Source: Escherichia phage garuso
Length of the DNA: 64,000 nucleotides
Reading direction: 5' to 3' (one strand)
Sequence record: MN850566.1
Positions 31,066-42,831 of this stretch are shown here, piece after piece (within the stretch, counting starts at the first letter, position 1; every line of letters starts with the position of its first letter). The translations under genes and the position numbers were made by a program. The notes below the pieces were generated by a model. The model was not told the origin of the DNA, searched no databases, and saw nothing but the letters and a program-made list of their open reading frames with translations.

Positions 31066-31336
31066 AGAGAAGTGGGAGATTTTACCATTAGTCAGTGAAG
31101 GCGGTAATGGTTGTGAAATGTACATGATACGTGGTCATGTTCCAGAACCAATTGCACTTGAGATGGTAAACAACTTTACAGATGGCTCTTACAAAGACTT
31201 AGGGGAGCCAAATATAAAGCAGCAATGGGTAAAGCCTGTACCAGACAGCACAGGTAACTGTAGTGTACTTTATCACGTTGTAGACCCTGCAAAATGCAAA
31301 TCTGCAATGGCAGTAACAAACGTAACTTTTGATTGA
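31058..31336 (+). CDS. hypothetical protein
   Basis: 92 aa ORF. Confidence 0.4.
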   Translation: MAKEKWEILPLVSEGGNGCEMYMIRGHVPEPIALEMVNNFTDGSYKDLGEPNIKQQWVKPVPDSTGNCSVLYHVVDPAKCKSAMAVTNVTFD

Positions 31337-31347
31337 GAGAGAAAACT

Positions 31348-32229
31348 ATGAAAACTGTTATTGAAGCCGTCGTCACCGCACAAGAGAAATTCTTCCACAC
31401 AGAAAAATTTAATATCATTCAATTCCCATCTGGAGAAATTGGTGGAAACTTCTCTGAAGATTTTGTTAAGTTTACTGAGCGTAATGCTGGTAAGATTGAT
31501 AATGTTATAATTACTGTACAGGGATATGACAAAGATACACTGTTTGCATTAGCTTTGGCTAAGGATGCCGTTGACAGTCTTGTTCCCCAGAAATCAGCGA
31601 TGAAAACCGTTGTTTTCGGGTTCTTACCAAATGCTCGATATGACCGCCACATGTTCAAAGGTGATGCAGCAGCACTGAAAGTCTTTGCCAACCTAGTTAA
31701 TGCAATGGGTTTTGATGCAGTATGTGCTCTTGACCCTCACAGTAATGTTGCAGAAAACTTATTTAAGTGCTTTCAAAGCATGAAGCAAAAAGATGTGGCA
31801 GTACACTTTGCAAGTGACCCACGCATTGATTTCTTGGTAGCCCCAGATGCAGGTGCAGCTAAGAAGACTGAAGATACCGCTAAAGAGGTGGATAAACCGT
31901 ATATCACAATGTCTAAGGTGCGCAATCTTAAGACTGGTGAAATTACTGGTATGCGAATCCTTGATGATGTTGATTTGACAGATAAAACTGTCATGATTCT
32001 GGATGATATTTGTGATGGAGGCCGAACCTTCGTAGAGGCAGCTAAACACCTACGTGAAGCAGGTGCAAAACGTGTGGAACTCTATGTAACTCATGGTATT
32101 TTCTCTAAAGGTGTTGAAAACTTACTTGACAACGGTATTGACCATATCTACACTACAAACACTTTAGGTGAAGCTAAAGACCGTGGCTTAACACATTACG
32201 CCCAAGTTACTGTAGCAACCATTGATTGA
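31348..32229 (+). CDS. ribose-phosphate pyrophosphokinase-like protein (PRTase fold)
   Basis: PRPP-binding-type motif ILDDICDGGRT; start at ATG 31348 with SD; adjacent to NAMPT. Confidence 0.6.
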   Translation: MKTVIEAVVTAQEKFFHTEKFNIIQFPSGEIGGNFSEDFVKFTERNAGKIDNVIITVQGYDKDTLFALALAKDAVDSLVPQKSAMKTVVFGFLPNARYDRHMFKGDAAALKVFANLVNAMGFDAVCALDPHSNVAENLFKCFQSMKQKDVAVHFASDPRIDFLVAPDAGAAKKTEDTAKEVDKPYITMSKVRNLKTGEITGMRILDDVDLTDKTVMILDDICDGGRTFVEAAKHLREAGAKRVELYVTHGIFSKGVENLLDNGIDHIYTTNTLGEAKDRGLTHYAQVTVATID

Positions 32230-32274
32230 AACTTTATAGGGGCTTGAAAGCCCCACTTTGAGAGAGATTAAAAG

Positions 32275-34056
32275 ATGACTAAATCACTTTACGCAGTACC
32301 AGCAGGTCTTAATGCAGATGCTTACAAGGCATCACATATATATCAGTATCCAGATGCTACGCAATATCTTATGTTGAACCTGACACCACGTAGTGATAAA
32401 TGGTTTAACAGCCCTTTGGCAATTGACGGTGTAGTGGCTTTTGGTATTCAACGTTTCGTTAAAGATTACTTGATAGACCACTGGAACGCCACTTTCTTTG
32501 AACGTGATAAAAAAGAAGCCATTGATGAAATCTTAGAAATCATGAATGGTGTTCTGGGTAAAGATGCTATCGGTCGAGAGCACTGGGAAGCACTTCACGA
32601 CTTAGGTTATCTACCAGTTGAAGTATACGCTGTAGAAGAAGGTACAGTTGTCCCTATGCGCGTCCCAATGATTGTCTTCCAGAACACTGTTTCAGGCTTC
32701 CATTGGGTAGCGGGGTATCTGGAAGATGCTTTCTCTGCTGAGATTTGGAAGGCTTGTACCATTGCAACTATTGCATTGCACTACAAACGTATCTGTAAGA
32801 AGTGGGCTGACCTTACTTGTGACAACGACTTGCATTTGCCTTATCAGTGCCATGACTTTGCTATGCGTGGTATGTCCGGCTTTACTGATGACGCATTTAA
32901 CGCTGTAGGCCACTTAACCAGCTTTAAAGGAACTGATAGCTTCCCTGCTGTGTATACGGCTAAACGAATCTATGGACAGTCCTACCCAATCTCTGATATT
33001 GGTAGCTCTGTACCAGCCACTGAGCACTCTGTAATGTGTGCAAACATTGCTTGGGAAGGTGGTAATGAGTTGATTGAAGAAGAAAGACGCTTTAAAGGTG
33101 AGTTACAAACCTTCCGTCGTTTCTTAACAGAAACTTACCCAACTGGTATTGCAAGTGTTGTTTCAGACACTTATAACTTCTGGAGAACTGTGTCAGAAAT
33201 TTTACCAGCACTTCGTAAAGAAATTATGGAACGTGATGGCAAACTGGTAATTCGTCCTGACTCTGGAGACCCTGTACATATTGTCACAGGTTATAAAGCA
33301 ATCCACTTAGAATGTGCTAAAAAGGCTTATTACGAGCACCTAAGCAAGCTGGAAGCCAGTGACACAATGTTGAATGCTGTTCTGAACATGAAGCTTGAAA
33401 ATATCAACTATGGTATTGCTGGATGGCTACTGTCAGAAGGCTACGAAATGGTTGTTGACAGAGAAGACTTTGAAGTTGCTGATACAGTGATGTTGAAAAA
33501 TGCTTATATGGTTGGTTCTGCAAACGTTGTAACACGTCCTGTAGCTGAGATTGATGGAGCTATTAAGACACTGTACAACATTTTTGGGGGAACTATTAAC
33601 TCTAAAGGGTTTAAGGTACTGGATGAGCATATCGGACTTATCTATGGTGACTCTATCACGCTGGAACGTGCAAACGAAATCCTGAAGCGTCTGTATGAAA
33701 TGGGGTTTGCAAGCTCTAACGTGGTGTTTGGTGTAGGCTCTTACACTTACCAGTACATGACTCGTGACACCTTTGCATTTGCTGTCAAAGCAACTCTTGC
33801 AAGCATTGGTGGCAAAGAGATTATGCTTGCAAAAGACCCTAAAACAGATAGTGGTGTTAAGAAATCTGCCTTTGGTGGTGTAGCGCCTATGTGGGATGGT
33901 GATAAGTTGAAAGCTGTAGATGGCTATGGAATACAGAGTTTTGCAGATGCACTTGAACACCCAGCTTGTGCTTTACGTTTAGTCTTTAGCGACTCTGAGC
34001 AGTTCGGTTATACAACTCTTGGTGATATTCGAAATAATATTGACAAGCAGCTTTAA
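32275..34056 (+). CDS. nicotinamide phosphoribosyltransferase (NAMPT/NadV-like)
   Basis: 593 aa; size and neighbourhood with PRPP-synthetase-like gene as in phage NAD salvage modules. Confidence 0.65.
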   Translation: MTKSLYAVPAGLNADAYKASHIYQYPDATQYLMLNLTPRSDKWFNSPLAIDGVVAFGIQRFVKDYLIDHWNATFFERDKKEAIDEILEIMNGVLGKDAIGREHWEALHDLGYLPVEVYAVEEGTVVPMRVPMIVFQNTVSGFHWVAGYLEDAFSAEIWKACTIATIALHYKRICKKWADLTCDNDLHLPYQCHDFAMRGMSGFTDDAFNAVGHLTSFKGTDSFPAVYTAKRIYGQSYPISDIGSSVPATEHSVMCANIAWEGGNELIEEERRFKGELQTFRRFLTETYPTGIASVVSDTYNFWRTVSEILPALRKEIMERDGKLVIRPDSGDPVHIVTGYKAIHLECAKKAYYEHLSKLEASDTMLNAVLNMKLENINYGIAGWLLSEGYEMVVDREDFEVADTVMLKNAYMVGSANVVTRPVAEIDGAIKTLYNIFGGTINSKGFKVLDEHIGLIYGDSITLERANEILKRLYEMGFASSNVVFGVGSYTYQYMTRDTFAFAVKATLASIGGKEIMLAKDPKTDSGVKKSAFGGVAPMWDGDKLKAVDGYGIQSFADALEHPACALRLVFSDSEQFGYTTLGDIRNNIDKQL

Positions 34057-38287: not shown

Positions 38288-38836
38288 ATGAAGAAATTGA
38301 TTCTAGGTTTGTGCTTAATGTTTACAGCACACTTATCTTATGCAGTTGACTGCCCAGAGCTATCAATTAGCCAAAAAGTAAACATGTTAAAAGCTTACCA
38401 GTATGGTGAGAATAACATGGGTAAAGGTTGGGGTATCACTCTAGCTGCTATAGCCTTACAAGAGTCAGAGTTAGGTCTGAAGGTAGAGAATAAAAAGACA
38501 CATGATTATGGTATCTTCCAGAATCACTTGAAGACTGTTGTAAAGCGTAACAAAATTAGTCCTAATGTGGCTAAAAAGAAACTCTTAAAAGACTTTGACT
38601 ATGCTGCGAAGGAAACTCACAAAGAGCTTGAGTTTTGGACAAAGGTGCATGGTCAGCCAAAGTCAAAGAAGACTTTACAAAAAGTTTTAGCATCATATAA
38701 TGCTGGGTATTCGTACAAAATCCCTAAAGCTAAGAAATATTCTCAAGATGTCTATAACAACATGAAAGTCATTGCTCAATGTGAATTTGCAATAAACATT
38801 TCTAAGGTAAACCATGAAAAAATTAAAAAAGTCTGA
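38288..38836 (+). CDS. putative secreted lytic transglycosylase (SLT-like)
   Basis: Signal peptide MKKLILGLCLMFTAHLSYA; SLT-like motifs ALQESELG, YGIFQ, YNAGYSY. Confidence 0.5.
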   Translation: MKKLILGLCLMFTAHLSYAVDCPELSISQKVNMLKAYQYGENNMGKGWGITLAAIALQESELGLKVENKKTHDYGIFQNHLKTVVKRNKISPNVAKKKLLKDFDYAAKETHKELEFWTKVHGQPKSKKTLQKVLASYNAGYSYKIPKAKKYSQDVYNNMKVIAQCEFAINISKVNHEKIKKV

Positions 38837-39509
38837 TGAAGTACTGTGTCATGCTTACGACTTACATCCTCATGAGTTAGGTCTTGATTCCTGTGTATGG
38901 ACTCCAGAACAGTGTAGGGATTTTGAAGACACTGCAAGAGAAGTTGTATGTTCACTCGAAGAGTTCCACACATCAGAGCCAATTGTGAATGTTGTAGATA
39001 AAGAGACTGGACAAACTATAGGTGTAAGTCGTGATAGCTTAGTCATAGTCAATAAAGACCTTGTAGAAAAAGGTAACCTCATCTTAGCAGATATTGATGG
39101 TGTTCTTACAAATTTTAATCACGAAGATTGCTCAACGGAATTGACTGATGGGTCATTCTCACAGTACACTAATCTTCTTGACTCTGTAAGAGCAAAACCA
39201 ACGTATGTCTTTAGTATTATTGATGCAATTGCTAATCATGCTGCCGTTGGACTCTTGACAGCGAGAGGCGAATCTCAGAGAATACCTACTGAGATGTTTT
39301 TAAGGCATAACACAGAGCATGATTATATGCTTTTTATGCGTGGTTTTGGAACTAACTCTATAAGTGCAGAAAGTTTGAAAGTGAGGATGATTCAGTCTTG
39401 CATTCTGCCTTACTTTAATATAGTATGTTTTATAGAAGATACAGAGAAGAATGTGCAGAAGGTGAATAGAATCCTTCCACACATCAAAACCATGTTAGTT
39501 AAACATTGA
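38814..39509 (+). CDS. HAD-family phosphatase (possible 5'-deoxynucleotidase)
   Basis: HAD motif I LADIDGVL and downstream LLTARGE. Confidence 0.5.
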   Translation: MKKLKKSDEVLCHAYDLHPHELGLDSCVWTPEQCRDFEDTAREVVCSLEEFHTSEPIVNVVDKETGQTIGVSRDSLVIVNKDLVEKGNLILADIDGVLTNFNHEDCSTELTDGSFSQYTNLLDSVRAKPTYVFSIIDAIANHAAVGLLTARGESQRIPTEMFLRHNTEHDYMLFMRGFGTNSISAESLKVRMIQSCILPYFNIVCFIEDTEKNVQKVNRILPHIKTMLVKH

Positions 39510-39984: not shown

Positions 39985-39996
39985 GGTTAAGATACA

Positions 39997-40019
39997 GGCT
40001 CCTTCGGGAGCCTTTTTCA
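39997..40019 (+). terminator. rho-independent terminator
   Basis: GGCTCC-TTCG-GGAGCC followed by TTTTT. Confidence 0.6.
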
Positions 40020-40036: not shown

Positions 40037-40384
40037 ATGACATTTAAAGAGTTCTGTCAAGCTACTTTCATAATTGTTTTCTTAGTTGGGGCAGGTGTCT
40101 GGGGAGGATACTCTTACAGAGACTATCAAGTTGCTGAAACTGAGCTAAACAATCAAAAGCTCATAAGTGTTGCTAAAGATGCTTATCAGGAAGGATTAGT
40201 AACATTGAGCACCAATTACAAAAATGATTTGAAGGATGTGCTTGCTAAGAATAAGCATACAAAAGAGGTACTAACATATGAAAAAACTAAGCCAGAGTTT
40301 TATAATGTTTGTGTTACTGATAACTATGTCAGGGTGTTCAACGAACAAAGTGAGCAGTACATTCAAAAACTCCCAAGTAAGTGA
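40037..40384 (+). CDS. putative i-spanin-like protein (N-terminal TM)
   Basis: 115 aa; N-terminal TM FIIVFLVGAGVWGG then helical periplasmic part; overlaps lipoprotein ORF in another frame. Confidence 0.35.
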   Translation: MTFKEFCQATFIIVFLVGAGVWGGYSYRDYQVAETELNNQKLISVAKDAYQEGLVTLSTNYKNDLKDVLAKNKHTKEVLTYEKTKPEFYNVCVTDNYVRVFNEQSEQYIQKLPSK

Positions 40385-40547
40385 GAGTGATAAGTACACT
40401 CAAGAAGAATCACGGTATATCATCAAAGGCAACACAGGCAGTGATGTAGCAGCAGCCCTTGAGTTCTATCGTGACGGCTTTTACCAGTGCACAATCAAAG
40501 CTAACAACCTTATTGACATGATTTTATTAGGGAATAAGCAGCAATGA
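40278..40547 (+). CDS. putative o-spanin-like lipoprotein
   Basis: Lipobox LITMSGC; embedded/overlapping arrangement typical of Rz/Rz1. Confidence 0.35.
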   Translation: MKKLSQSFIMFVLLITMSGCSTNKVSSTFKNSQVSESDKYTQEESRYIIKGNTGSDVAAALEFYRDGFYQCTIKANNLIDMILLGNKQQ

Positions 40548-41344: not shown

Positions 41345-41537
41345 CTTCTGCAAAGACTGTGCTATCGAGATGTTTGGACGTGATACAGGTGATTTAAAAG
41401 GTCTTATCACTGAAGATGACTTTAAAGCTGGCTATGCAATGCCAGTAATCTGTGAAGGTTGTGGGTGCATCTGGGTAGACCATGAGGGGCAACGTGTAAA
41501 ACCTTCAGAAGATAAAGAATCTTGGGAGAGATGTTAA
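41337..41537 (+). CDS. hypothetical Cys-rich protein
   Basis: CKDC...CEGCGC; start at internal Met of ORF 41301-41537. Confidence 0.4.
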   Translation: MADFCKDCAIEMFGRDTGDLKGLITEDDFKAGYAMPVICEGCGCIWVDHEGQRVKPSEDKESWERC

Positions 41538-42323
41538 ATGGGTATTGTAAAAATCATCAATGGTGATATCTTTGCTGCATTTGATAAAGGTAAGTTTGAC
41601 ATCATTGGTCATGGTTGTAACTGTATGAACCTAATGGGTGCAGGTATCGCTGATAAGATTTCTAAACTTTACCCAAAAGCATATGAGACCGATACAGAAG
41701 TTTATCTATATGCAGGCGGTATAGGCCACAAACCCTGTGAAAATTTACTAGGTAACTTCTCTGTAGCACGTTTAAAACAAGGCCGTATAGCTAACCTTTA
41801 CACTCAGCTTAAGACTGGTAAAGATGCCCGATACAGTGCTTTAGAGTCATCTTTGAAACAGCTTAACAGATACTGTGAAGTCAATCAGTTGAAGAAAGTC
41901 GGGTTACCTATGATTGGTGCAGGTATCGGTGGGCTAGACGCTCAAGCCGTCACAGTTATCATTAATCAGGTGATGAAGAGTGTAGATGTGTATCTGTATG
42001 TCTATGAAGGAGAGATGTACCACAAGTTACGCTCAGGTTGGAAGAACTACTGTGAACCAGAATACTTTGCAGGTGTAGTAACGTTCACAGACAATACAGT
42101 TACCCTCTTCAGACGAAGAAAAGGTAAGATACATCAAAGTAACCCTCCGGTTGAAAAGATGTCTCTAAGTAACGCTCTAGTTACCCACCTGTCGAAGAGC
42201 AATCACAGGATTGCAGTAACATTTGGTAGTGATGCAGACACTTATATCTATGCAAGAACTGATGAGGGTATCGAGACAGTTTTCTCTTCGCCAGAAGTTA
42301 CCTTCTTAGACGCAAAGAACTAA
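41538..42323 (+). CDS. macro-domain protein (putative ADP-ribose binding/hydrolase)
   Basis: N-terminal IVKIINGDIFAAFDKGKFDIIGHGCNCMNLMGAGIADKI and PMIGAGIGGLD fit macro-domain glycine-rich motifs. Confidence 0.55.
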   Translation: MGIVKIINGDIFAAFDKGKFDIIGHGCNCMNLMGAGIADKISKLYPKAYETDTEVYLYAGGIGHKPCENLLGNFSVARLKQGRIANLYTQLKTGKDARYSALESSLKQLNRYCEVNQLKKVGLPMIGAGIGGLDAQAVTVIINQVMKSVDVYLYVYEGEMYHKLRSGWKNYCEPEYFAGVVTFTDNTVTLFRRRKGKIHQSNPPVEKMSLSNALVTHLSKSNHRIAVTFGSDADTYIYARTDEGIETVFSSPEVTFLDAKN

Positions 42324-42389
42324 GAAACTCTGTAGAGTATTCACAATAAACTAAGCCTTTCTTATCTGGTAAATTTTTCAGGTAAGGAG

Positions 42390-42600
42390 GGCTTTTTCAT
42401 TTCAGAATTGTGCAGGTATATTTCTATAGAGAAATCTGTAGAGGAAATTTTGAACTCCAAAGAGAAAATTCATTTTCAAACTGTGCAGGTAATCTCCAAA
42501 GGGTTTTTTCATTTTCAAAACGTGCAGAGAAAAATCAGGTCGGGCAAGAAAAATCATTTTAGAATTGTGCAGGTAGGTGGGTGCAGGTGGGGATGTCGCC
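42390..42600 (+). repeat. array of four or five direct repeats TTTCATTTTCA(A/G)AA(C/T)TGTGCAGGTA (iteron-like)
   Basis: Copies near 42395, 42466, 42504, 42553 (last followed by GGTGGGTGCAGGTGG) in a 490 bp ORF-free region. Confidence 0.55.
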
Positions 42601-42752
42601 ATTTCTCACAAGGCTACCACATCTGGAAATAAAAGTCAACAGAAAAATTTGTAGCGGATTGAAAAATAATTCTTGATTGTAGTTCTGTTTTGTGGTAGTC
42701 GCGCGCACCCGTTTCATTACAATCTTTGCAAAAAATATTTTTAAAATTCCTA

Positions 42753-42781
42753 TTGACTCTTTGAGTATGGTTATCTAATAT
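42753..42781 (+). promoter_or_regulatory. sigma70-like promoter TTGACT-17-TAATAT
   Basis: Consensus-like -35/-10 upstream of first cassette gene. Confidence 0.5.
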
Positions 42782-42831
42782 TTGCATCAGACGGGCAATC
42801 AAGCCCACTTCCTAAACTGGAGATTCAAAAA

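What the first reader, a model, noticed from the sequence alone, without database searches (positions are those of the whole stretch)
41538..42323. Macro-domain protein in the early region
N-terminal 180 aa have macro-domain hallmarks (GDIFAA...HGCNCMNLMGAGIADKI...PMIGAGIGGLD), followed by an 80 aa extension. Phage macro domains can reverse ADP-ribosylation, including modifications made by bacterial defence or toxin systems, so this is a candidate counter-defence factor.
Basis: partly seen in the sequence, partly recalled or inferred. Interest (0 to 1): 0.5.

Follow-up and report, generated by a model that had tools for sequence, protein, structure and literature searches.

The report
Phage macrodomain with extra tail domain
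This FelixO1-like phage gene encodes an ADP-ribose-removing macrodomain related to proteins that protect phages T4 and PhiKZ from the bacterial DarTG2 defence, fused to a small extra domain of unknown function; it is an expected family member, not a surprise.

Summary
The ORF is real (41538-42323, + strand, 261 aa) and its N-terminal ~156 residues are a genuine macro domain. Pfam Macro scores 31.8 bits against a cut-off of 22, and the AlphaFold model matches TARG1 (TM 0.80-0.83) and DarG (TM 0.73-0.76). The window is a Felixounavirus. The gene is the conserved Ounavirinae "putative phosphatase" (PHROG 335). It is 34% identical (E 2e-24) to T4 Tk.4, recently named AdfM, which T4 needs to resist DarTG2; PhiKZ AdfM is in the same PHROG. 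The active site is not the Lys type of DarG, TARG1 and PhiKZ AdfM. Gln90 is invariant at that position, with His25 and Asn28, as in T4 Tk.4 and in Streptomyces SCO6735, a Gln-dependent thymidine-ADP-ribose DNA hydrolase. Residues ~157-261 are a lineage-restricted beta-rich domain with no fold or sequence match. It is under purifying selection but evolves 2-3 times faster than the macro domain. Most likely function (inferred, not shown): removing ADP-ribose from DarT2-modified phage DNA. Corrections: the macro domain is ~156 aa, the extension ~105 aa, and "early region" is unverified. Verdict: new member of a known kind, moderate-low interest.

The parts
41538..42323 (+). Complete CDS, 261 aa plus stop: two-domain macro protein. 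It is the ortholog of FelixO1 'phosphatase', warpig_55 and bas63_0095.
   Evidence: ORF list; 99.6% identical to warpig_55; annotated 'putative phosphatase' or 'macro domain protein' in relatives.
41524..41530 (+). Shine-Dalgarno-like GGGAGAG, 7 nt before the ATG. The stop codon of the upstream 78-aa ORF (41535-41537) abuts the start codon.
   Evidence: Read directly from the sequence.
41538..42005 (+). Macro domain, residues 1-156 (alpha/beta/alpha fold; TARG1/DarG/SCO6735 class).
   Evidence: Pfam Macro 31.8 bits; AF2 model pLDDT 84, pTM 0.85; Foldseek TARG1 TM 0.80-0.83, DarG 0.73-0.76, Poa1p 0.73; DarG models match the macro part only.
41610..41651 (+). Active-site loop 1, H25-G-C-N28-C-x-N-x-M-G34-A-G36-I-A38. 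H25 and N28 correspond to SCO6735 H24 and N27. N28 also corresponds to DarG N22 and PhiKZ AdfM N23.
   Evidence: Invariant in 19 homologs; joint alignment A4; residue roles from PMC9411070 and PMC13309987.
41793..41807 (+). Motif N86-L-Y-T-Q90. Q90 occupies the position of the catalytic Lys of TARG1 (K84), DarG (K80) and PhiKZ AdfM (K78), and of the essential Gln85 of SCO6735.
   Evidence: HMMER alignments to TARG1; BLASTP to PhiKZ gp104; alignment A4 with SCO6735 and DarG sequences recovered; invariant in the family.
41907..41939 (+). Phosphate-binding loop 2, P124-M-I-G127-A-G129-I-G-G-L-D134. G131 lies at the position of TARG1 D125.
42006..42320 (+). Linker helix (res 158-167) plus a C-terminal beta-rich domain (~175-255). 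It has no known fold and is found only fused to this macro domain in Ounavirinae-like phages.
42353..42394 (+). Terminator-like hairpin (17 pairs) followed by a T-run, 30 nt after the stop codon. It marks the end of the transcription unit.
   Evidence: 'terminator' is annotated at the equivalent place in phages KhF2, KhF3, XTG1 and ASO1A.

Best explanation
The gene encodes an active ADP-ribosyl glycohydrolase of the TARG1/DarG/SCO6735 macrodomain class. It is the Ounavirinae counterpart of T4 Tk.4 (AdfM). The most likely role is as an orphan-antitoxin-like counter-defence enzyme. When a host DarT2 toxin ADP-ribosylates thymines in single-stranded phage DNA, the macro domain binds the ADP-ribose in its Gly-rich cleft and hydrolyses the N3-thymine-ribose bond, which restores replicable DNA. 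Catalysis would follow the Gln-type (SCO6735-like) route. In that route Gln90, held in place by Asn28, positions the distal ribose and the transition state, and a backbone-held water next to His25/Gly26 starts hydrolysis. This differs from the Lys route of DarG and TARG1. The C-terminal ~100-aa domain is an accessory module whose role is unknown. What is shown: the fold, the homology, the motif conservation, purifying selection and the conserved genomic position. What is inferred: the substrate, the catalytic route, and the defence system that is countered.
For: Macro fold and family membership are established. The query is 34% identical to T4 Tk.4 over the whole macro domain, E 2e-24, and shares HGCNC and NLYTQ. 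Query, Tk.4 and PhiKZ gp104 all fall in PHROG 335. A clean tk.4 knockout sensitises T4 to DarTG2. PhiKZ AdfM removes DarT2-made ADP-ribose from DNA in vitro and protects the phage. The only PADLOC hit, and the only significant NCBIfam hit, is DarG (47.7 and 48.4 bits), and both scores are higher than for Tk.4 itself. Gln at the Lys position is catalytically competent: SCO6735 Q85A and Q85E are dead, the wild type cleaves thymidine-ADP-ribose on DNA and protects against DarT, and His24 and Asn27 matter. These residues align with H25, N28 and Q90 and are invariant in 19 homologs down to 40% macro identity. Macro dN/dS is 0.01-0.2. The hosts, E. coli and Salmonella, are the species from which the DarTG systems used in the phage work came.
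Against: There is no experiment on any Ounavirinae protein, and no paper in the held library mentions it. Identity to Tk.4 is only 34%, and substrate specificity in macrodomains is not predictable from sequence (PMC9503650). Tk.4's role rests on genetics in a preprint, without biochemistry. DarG's Trp83, said to stack on thymine, has no aromatic counterpart here, and SCO6735's 5-residue Lys-bearing loop insertion is absent. The extra C-terminal domain is absent from all validated AdfMs. I could not find whether Felixounaviruses resist DarTG2.
Confidence: 0.55

Rival explanations
1. The enzyme works on small soluble ADP-ribose derivatives rather than on DNA. Candidates are ADP-ribose-1''-phosphate (Poa1p-like 'phosphatase', an RNA-repair by-product), O-acetyl-ADP-ribose, or NAD-derived immune signals and toxins.
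For: The historical annotations are 'phosphatase', 'A1pp' and 'O-acetyl-ADP-ribose deacetylase'. The N-terminal 60 residues resemble yeast Poa1p (E 5.5e-5, HxCN motif) and the fold TM to Poa1p is 0.73. A HAD/PNKP-like 'polynucleotide kinase' lies 2 kb upstream in conserved synteny. PRPP synthetase and NAMPT genes are in the same block. Iyer et al. argue that phage Macro domains mainly counter low-molecular-weight ADP-ribose derivatives.
Against: The closest characterised homolog, T4 Tk.4, has a DarTG2-specific phenotype. The best sequence and structure matches are TARG1 and DarG, the nucleic-acid base de-ADP-ribosylases, and not MacroD or YmdB. Poa1p similarity by sequence covers only the first 60 residues. 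No Tpt1/KptA, RNA ligase or sirtuin is annotated in a complete relative. The 'phosphatase' label comes from the domain's old name, not from an assay.
Confidence: 0.2
2. The enzyme reverses ADP-ribosylation of a macromolecule other than DarT2-modified DNA. Candidates are uracil-N3 ADP-ribose on RNA, or Asp/Glu-linked ADP-ribose on proteins, made by other host toxins or defence ADP-ribosyltransferases.
For: TARG1, DarG and SCO6735 also remove uracil-linked ADP-ribose from RNA. TARG1 and SCO6735 also act on protein substrates. Anti-phage ARTs that target RNA exist, such as CmdTAC.
Against: SCO6735 is inactive on guanosine and 2'-OH RNA linkages. CmdT modifies adenine N6, a linkage for which none of the papers read here reports a macrodomain eraser. 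No bacterial anti-phage system that makes U-ADP-ribose came up in the papers read here. Tk.4 was the single significant hit specifically under DarTG2.
Confidence: 0.15
3. The protein regulates a phage-encoded ADP-ribosyltransferase, acting as an eraser for the phage's own writer, as in Alt/Mod-type systems or phage toxin-antitoxin pairs.
For: Macro and ART or sirtuin genes are paired in some phages. One weak homolog in a Microbacterium phage is annotated 'ADP-ribosyltransferase' (H60).
Against: No ART, sirtuin or DarT is annotated in a complete curated Felixounavirus. No neighbouring ORF hits any PADLOC model. The neighbours in distant relatives are rIIB, methyltransferase, lysin, PNKP and spanins.
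Confidence: 0.04
4. The protein is a catalytically inactive ADP-ribose reader or binder, because the canonical catalytic Lys (and TARG1's Asp125) are missing.
For: Q90 replaces the Lys and G131 replaces the Asp. DarG K80A and TARG1 K84A are inactive. Inactive mutants can still inhibit DarT by interaction.
Against: SCO6735 with Gln at this position is highly active, and the Gln is essential. T4 Tk.4 has the same Gln and is functional genetically. The invariance of H25, N28, N86 and Q90 points to a catalytic constraint.
Confidence: 0.05

Closest known systems
T4 Tk.4 = AdfM (anti-DarT factor, macrodomain); HIDEN-SEQ preprint 10.1101/2025.11.20.689424
   Same: Same PHROG (335). The two are 34% identical across the whole macro domain (E 2e-24). 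The active-site signature is identical (HGCNC, NLYTQ, IGAGIG). Both are orphan genes with no adjacent toxin in a lytic enterobacterial myovirus.
   Different: Tk.4 is a single 155-aa domain, whereas the query has an extra ~105-aa C-terminal region. The genomic neighbourhood differs: tk-vs in T4, spanin/PNKP/rII in Ounavirinae. No functional data exist for the query.
Streptomyces coelicolor SCO6735 (PDB 5E3B), a Gln-type thymidine-ADP-ribose DNA hydrolase
   Same: It is a stand-alone DarG/TARG1-class macrodomain. It has Gln at the catalytic Lys position and a His-x-x-Asn loop, and it is not encoded next to DarT.
   Different: Identity is only about 25%. SCO6735 has a 5-residue longer mobile loop carrying Lys89 and Lys94, which the query lacks. 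It is a bacterial DNA-damage-inducible gene and has no C-terminal domain.
PhiKZ gp104 = AdfM (Cell Rep 2026, PMC13309987)
   Same: It is in PHROG 335, has a macro fold, conserves the Asn (N23, equivalent to N28), and is a phage-encoded orphan eraser.
   Different: It is Lys-type (K78), like DarG. Identity is only 23% (E 6e-5 pairwise). It is imported into the phage nucleus, is a single domain, and is biochemically validated.
Bacterial DarG2 antitoxin (TaqDarG 5M31/5M3E, MtbDarG 5M3I; NCBIfam NF048014)
   Same: The macro domain is homologous (profile E 4e-9 and 6e-7; TM 0.73-0.76). Both have a two-module architecture of macro domain plus C-terminal domain.
   Different: The score is far below the equivalog cut-off (48 bits against 250). 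DarG has a catalytic Lys80 and Trp83. The query's C-terminal domain shows no detectable similarity to DarG's DarT-binding domain. There is no adjacent DarT.
Human TARG1/OARD1 (4J5R/4J5S)
   Same: It is the best sequence and structural match in PDB (E 1e-11 with the family profile; TM 0.80-0.83), and it also cleaves thymine- and uracil-linked ADP-ribose.
   Different: TARG1 uses Lys84 and Asp125, through a covalent lysyl intermediate. The query has Gln90 and Gly131 at those positions.

Membership tests
Macro domain superfamily (Pfam PF01661) | Profile score at or above the curated gathering threshold | tested here: met
   31.8 bits against a cut-off of 22, covering residues 25-141 and profile positions 2-117 of 118.
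Macro domain superfamily (Pfam PF01661) | Three-layer alpha/beta/alpha fold with a central mixed sheet, superposable on solved macrodomains | tested here: met
   AF2 model pLDDT 84. Foldseek gives 208 PDB hits at E<=1e-3. All 50 hits listed are macrodomains or designed proteins built on macro-type scaffolds. TM is 0.80-0.83 to TARG1.
Macro domain superfamily (Pfam PF01661) | Gly-rich ADP-ribose/phosphate-binding loops (GxG after strand 2, and a second G-rich loop) | tested here: met
   M33-G-A-G36 and G127-A-G-I-G-G132 are invariant or nearly so in 19 homologs.
TARG1/DarG Lys-type hydrolases (ALC1-like class) | Closest sequence and structure neighbours are TARG1 and DarG | tested here: met
TARG1/DarG Lys-type hydrolases (ALC1-like class) | Catalytic lysine (TARG1 K84, DarG K80) | tested here: not met
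   Gln90 is at this column in three independent alignments, and it is invariant in the family.
TARG1/DarG Lys-type hydrolases (ALC1-like class) | TARG1 resolving aspartate D125 | tested here: not met
   Gly131 aligns with D125. An invariant Asp134 lies three residues later, and its role is unknown.
SCO6735-type (Gln-type) thymidine-ADP-ribose hydrolases | Gln at the catalytic Lys position | tested here: met
   Q90 aligns with SCO6735 Q85. The role of Q85 comes from PMC9411070.
SCO6735-type (Gln-type) thymidine-ADP-ribose hydrolases | His24-Val25-x-Asn27 loop | tested here: met
   H25-G26-C27-N28 aligns with H24-V25-C26-N27. Val25 acts through its backbone, so Gly at that position is not excluded.
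SCO6735-type (Gln-type) thymidine-ADP-ribose hydrolases | Extended mobile loop (5 residues longer) carrying Lys89 and Lys94 | tested here: not met
   The insertion is present only in SCO6735 in alignment A4. The query has K92 and K95 but no insertion, and these lysines are not conserved in T4 Tk.4.
SCO6735-type (Gln-type) thymidine-ADP-ribose hydrolases | Hydrolysis of N3-thymine-linked ADP-ribose on ssDNA | not testable with these tools
   This needs a biochemical assay.
AdfM (phage anti-DarT factor, macrodomain) | Homology to a validated AdfM (T4 Tk.4 or PhiKZ gp104) | tested here: met
   Tk.4 is 34% identical, E 2e-24. gp104 is 23% identical, E 6e-5. All are in PHROG 335.
AdfM (phage anti-DarT factor, macrodomain) | Protects the phage against DarTG2 | not testable with these tools
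   No data on Felixounavirus and DarTG2 were found.
AdfM (phage anti-DarT factor, macrodomain) | Single-domain protein of about 155-162 aa | tested here: not met
   The query is 261 aa and has an additional folded C-terminal domain.
DarG antitoxin (NCBIfam NF048014 equivalog; PADLOC DarG) | Full-length model score above the curated cut-off, including the C-terminal DarT-binding domain | tested here: not met
   48.4 bits against a cut-off of 250. Only profile positions 4-153 of 338 (NCBIfam) and 18-146 of 329 (PADLOC) are matched.
DarG antitoxin (NCBIfam NF048014 equivalog; PADLOC DarG) | Encoded next to a DarT toxin | tested here: not met
   Flanking ORFs have no PADLOC hit. Annotated neighbours in relatives are spanins and hypothetical proteins.
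Poa1p-like ADP-ribose-1''-phosphate phosphatase (source of the 'phosphatase' annotation) | Sequence similarity across the whole domain | tested here: inconclusive
   Only residues 1-60 align by sequence (E 5.5e-5). The fold TM of 0.73 is similar to that for other macrodomains.
Poa1p-like ADP-ribose-1''-phosphate phosphatase (source of the 'phosphatase' annotation) | Phosphatase activity on Appr-1''-p | not testable with these tools
   This needs a biochemical assay.

The most novel reading that the evidence does not exclude
The fast-evolving, fold-orphan C-terminal domain may be a second functional module that makes this protein a convergent two-module 'DarG mimic'. It might bind and inhibit DarT-like toxins directly, as DarG's own C-terminal domain does, or it might tether the eraser to the phage replisome or ssDNA. 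Its rapid divergence and domain-wise mosaic exchange would then reflect an arms race with diverse host toxins.
Probability: 0.15. Interest if true: 0.6.

Novelty: new member of a known kind. Interest (0 to 1): 0.35.

Why it matters
If the inference holds, Felixounaviruses carry a built-in eraser of DarT2 DNA ADP-ribosylation. These phages are widely used for Salmonella typing and are candidates for therapy and biocontrol, and the eraser would help explain their host range on E. coli and Salmonella strains carrying DarTG2. The analysis also shows that the proteins now called AdfM fall into two mechanistic classes. PhiKZ AdfM is Lys-type, like DarG. T4 Tk.4 and the Ounavirinae proteins are Gln-type, like SCO6735. 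This matters for choosing catalytic-dead mutants (Q90A or N28A, not a Lys mutant) and for inhibitor design. The widespread database label 'phosphatase' for PHROG 335 is probably misleading. The orphan C-terminal domain is a defined, testable unknown.

Tried and rejected
1. A word-index homolog search with the C-terminal 105 aa alone found nothing. The exhaustive profile search found only the same two-domain family, plus two apparent stand-alone hits (P0033, P0041) that are truncated ORF calls; P0033 begins with the end of the macro domain.

3. I rejected the idea that the C-terminal domain is a basic nucleic-acid-binding module. Its pI ranges from 4.6 to 9.5 across homologs.

4. I found no support for the idea that the C-terminal domain is homologous to DarG's DarT-binding domain. 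Both DarG profiles match only their macro part.

5. I rejected the idea that the clade descends from DarG genes sitting next to DarT in bacteria. Only 7 bacterial loci share the family motifs. The two inspected are stand-alone Gln-type macro genes beside unrelated genes: FabI-like reductase, FAD oxidase and Nudix.

6. The AFDB Foldseek library was unavailable, so BFVD was used instead.

7. The sigma-70 promoter scan was no better than shuffled sequence (17 sites against 14.2 +/- 3.5), so expression timing could not be judged.

8. The first genome scan, with alignment A3, failed for lack of conserved stretches. The LeRoux 2022 DarTG paper is not held.

Full report
**Observation.** A GGGAGAG Shine-Dalgarno sequence lies 7 nt upstream. 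The stop codon of the preceding 78-aa ORF abuts the ATG, which suggests translational coupling. A strong terminator-like hairpin (17 pairs followed by a T-run) lies at 42353-42394, 30 nt after the stop codon. Relatives carry an annotated terminator at the same place.

**Genome identity.** The window is a Felixounavirus (FelixO1-like myovirus, subfamily Ounavirinae). The 2-kb stretch around the gene is 91-95% identical to more than 150 phage records from E. coli, Salmonella and Shigella. The protein is 99.6% identical to warpig_55, annotated 'putative phosphatase'. Other records call it 'phosphatase', 'macro domain protein' or 'O-acetyl-ADP-ribose deacetylase'. The gene is therefore already annotated in databases. 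No paper in the held library discusses it.

**Macro domain.**
- Pfam Macro (PF01661) scores 31.8 bits against a cut-off of 22.
- PHROG 335 scores 375 bits.
- A profile of 19 homologs hits TARG1 (E 1e-11), MtbDarG (4e-9), TaqDarG (6e-7) and Poa1p (5.5e-5, N-terminal 60 residues only).
- An AlphaFold2 model (pLDDT 84, pTM 0.85) shows the macro fold in residues 1-156.
- Foldseek ranks TARG1 first (TM 0.80-0.83), then DarG (0.73-0.76). Poa1p scores 0.73.
- DarG is the only PADLOC hit (47.7 bits) and the only significant NCBIfam hit (48.4 bits, far below the 250-bit equivalog cut-off). Only the macro part of those models is matched.

**Relation to validated phage proteins.** The macro domain is 34% identical over its whole length to T4 Tk.4 (E 2e-24). 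A 2025 preprint showed tk.4 to be the single significant T4 gene required on DarTG2 hosts. A clean knockout became DarTG2-sensitive, and the authors named the gene adfM. Independently, PhiKZ gp104, also named AdfM, removes DarT2-made ADP-ribose from DNA in vitro and protects the phage. Query, Tk.4, PhiKZ gp104 and the Kolesnikvirus ortholog all belong to PHROG 335. The macro core has homologs in about 2,300-2,800 phage records.

**Active site.** DarG, TARG1 and PhiKZ AdfM rely on a catalytic Lys (K80, K84 and K78) and a conserved Asn (N22 in DarG, N23 in PhiKZ AdfM). In the query the Asn is present (N28), but the Lys position holds Gln90. This comes out of the HMMER alignments to TARG1, BLASTP to PhiKZ gp104, and a joint alignment with DarG and SCO6735 sequences recovered from PDB alignments. 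TARG1 D125 aligns with Gly131.

The motifs H25-G-C-N28, N86-L-Y-T-Q90 and G127-A-G-I-x-G-L-D134 are invariant in all 19 two-domain homologs, down to 40% macro identity. T4 Tk.4 has the same HGCNC and NLYTQ. This is not a dead enzyme. S. coelicolor SCO6735 has Gln85 at this position, preceded by His24-Val25-x-Asn27. It cleaves thymidine-linked ADP-ribose from DNA and protects against DarT, and Q85A or Q85E abolishes activity. Its proposed mechanism uses a backbone-positioned water, with Gln orienting the distal ribose.

The query and T4 Tk.4 thus carry the SCO6735-type signature, while PhiKZ AdfM is Lys-type. SCO6735's 5-residue loop insertion with Lys89 and Lys94, and DarG's Trp83, have no counterpart in the query. 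The few bacterial relatives that share the family motifs (7 loci among 185,579 species genomes) are stand-alone. The two inspected are Gln-type (NLATQ, NLASQ) and have no DarT neighbour.

**C-terminal domain.** Residues ~157-261 form a linker helix and a six-stranded beta-rich domain. pLDDT is 75 when this region is modelled alone, and the whole-protein pTM of 0.85 suggests a fixed orientation between the two domains.
- BFVD returns only the domain's own ortholog from phage SUSP2.
- An exhaustive HMM search of 1.84 billion representative proteins finds it only fused to this macro domain. The apparent stand-alone hits are truncated ORF calls, and the weak hits to PQQ-type propellers are additive noise.
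- The domain is present across Ounavirinae: Felixounavirus, Mooglevirus, SUSP2, Kolesnikvirus (260 aa), and metagenomic relatives at 33-35% overall identity. Synteny is conserved throughout: rIIA-rIIB, SLT lysin, HAD/PNKP, (spanins), macro.
- It diverges 2-3 times faster than the macro domain (79% against 48%, and 43% against 15% identity).
- It is still under purifying selection. dN/dS is 0.05-0.3 within the genus and about 0.5 against Mooglevirus, compared with 0.01-0.2 for the macro domain.
- Window against warpig shows 15 substitutions in the macro half and none in the C-terminal 315 nt, which indicates mosaic exchange within the gene.
- It is not consistently basic (pI 4.6-9.5), and it does not match DarG's DarT-binding domain.

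The function of this domain is unknown.

**Genomic context.** The gene is the last in a terminator-bounded unit (39996-40013 to 42353-42394). That unit starts with an overlapping i-spanin/o-spanin pair and four small ORFs. Upstream in the same-strand block lie NrdD/NrdG, PRPP synthetase (31333-32229), NAMPT (32275-34056), rIIA, rIIB, an SLT-type lysin and a HAD-type 'polynucleotide kinase'. No ADP-ribosyltransferase, NADAR, Tpt1 or RNA ligase is annotated in the complete curated relative Bas63, and the flanking small ORFs have no PADLOC hits. 'Early region' is therefore plausible but unverified. The spanins in the same unit argue for caution, and the promoter scan was uninformative.

**Interpretation.** The best-supported explanation (confidence about 0.55) is an AdfM-type orphan eraser. 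It would remove ADP-ribose from thymines in phage ssDNA modified by host DarT2, using a Gln-type (SCO6735-like) mechanism. The fold, homology, motif conservation and selection are shown. The substrate, the mechanism and the defence countered are inferred from homologs.

Rival explanations:
- Processing of small ADP-ribose derivatives: Poa1p-like phosphatase, OAADPr, or immune signals. The PNKP and NAD-salvage context and Iyer et al.'s argument support this, about 0.2.
- Erasing RNA- or protein-linked ADP-ribose made by other toxins, about 0.15.
- Partnering a phage ART, about 0.04.
- An inactive reader, about 0.05.

**Novelty and verdict.** This is a new, untested member of a known kind: phage macrodomain anti-DarT factors in PHROG 335. 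Two points go beyond the published descriptions read here. First, 'AdfM' proteins split into Lys-type (PhiKZ) and Gln-type (T4, Ounavirinae) active sites. Second, Ounavirinae carry a lineage-specific, faster-evolving, fold-orphan C-terminal domain. Interest is moderate-low (0.35). It would rise if the C-terminal domain proved to be a toxin-binding or targeting module.

Noticed in passing
window 42398-42572 (within the ~500-nt ORF-poor gap 42324-42831): There are four direct copies of an 18-nt motif, CATTT(5-6 nt)GTGCAG, each within a longer ~28-nt repeat. They are spaced 39-73 nt apart and lie immediately after the macro gene's terminator. The motif occurs nowhere else in the 64 kb (0.37 expected by chance; no shuffle out of 100 reached 4). 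It could be a set of regulator-binding sites or part of a non-coding RNA locus. Relatives either leave this gap unannotated or call tiny minus-strand ORFs there.
   Followed up: partly
window 31333-34056: Adjacent genes for a PRPP synthetase-like protein (Pribosyltran/Pribosyl_synth) and a nicotinamide phosphoribosyltransferase (NAPRTase/NAMPT_N) lie 7.5 kb upstream on the same strand. This is a phage NAD+ salvage module. Together with the macro gene, it may form an NAD/ADP-ribose-centred counter-defence repertoire.
   Followed up: partly
window 41538-42323 compared with L001 9001-9786 (phage warpig): The gene is mosaic. The macro half has 15 substitutions (dS 0.15), while the C-terminal 315 nt are identical. 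This implies a recent recombination breakpoint near the domain boundary.
   Followed up: partly
window 40037-40547: An overlapping i-spanin/o-spanin pair opens the same terminator-bounded unit that ends with the macro gene. The first ORF has an N-terminal transmembrane segment, and the second has a lipobox (LITMSGC). In Kolesnikvirus the macro gene directly follows the spanins (L019). This conflicts with a simple 'early region' label.
   Followed up: partly
window 38814-39509: A 231-aa ORF is annotated 'polynucleotide kinase' in relatives and contains a DxDGT HAD motif (ADIDGVL). It has no Pfam hit at E<=0.01 here, and only weak HAD_PNKP hits are on record for distant homologs (L004, L005). 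Its synteny with the macro gene is conserved across Ounavirinae-like phages.
   Followed up: no
window 59843-63383: An array of 18 tRNA genes lies on the + strand, as is typical of FelixO1-like phages.
   Followed up: no
[not shown]
   Followed up: yes
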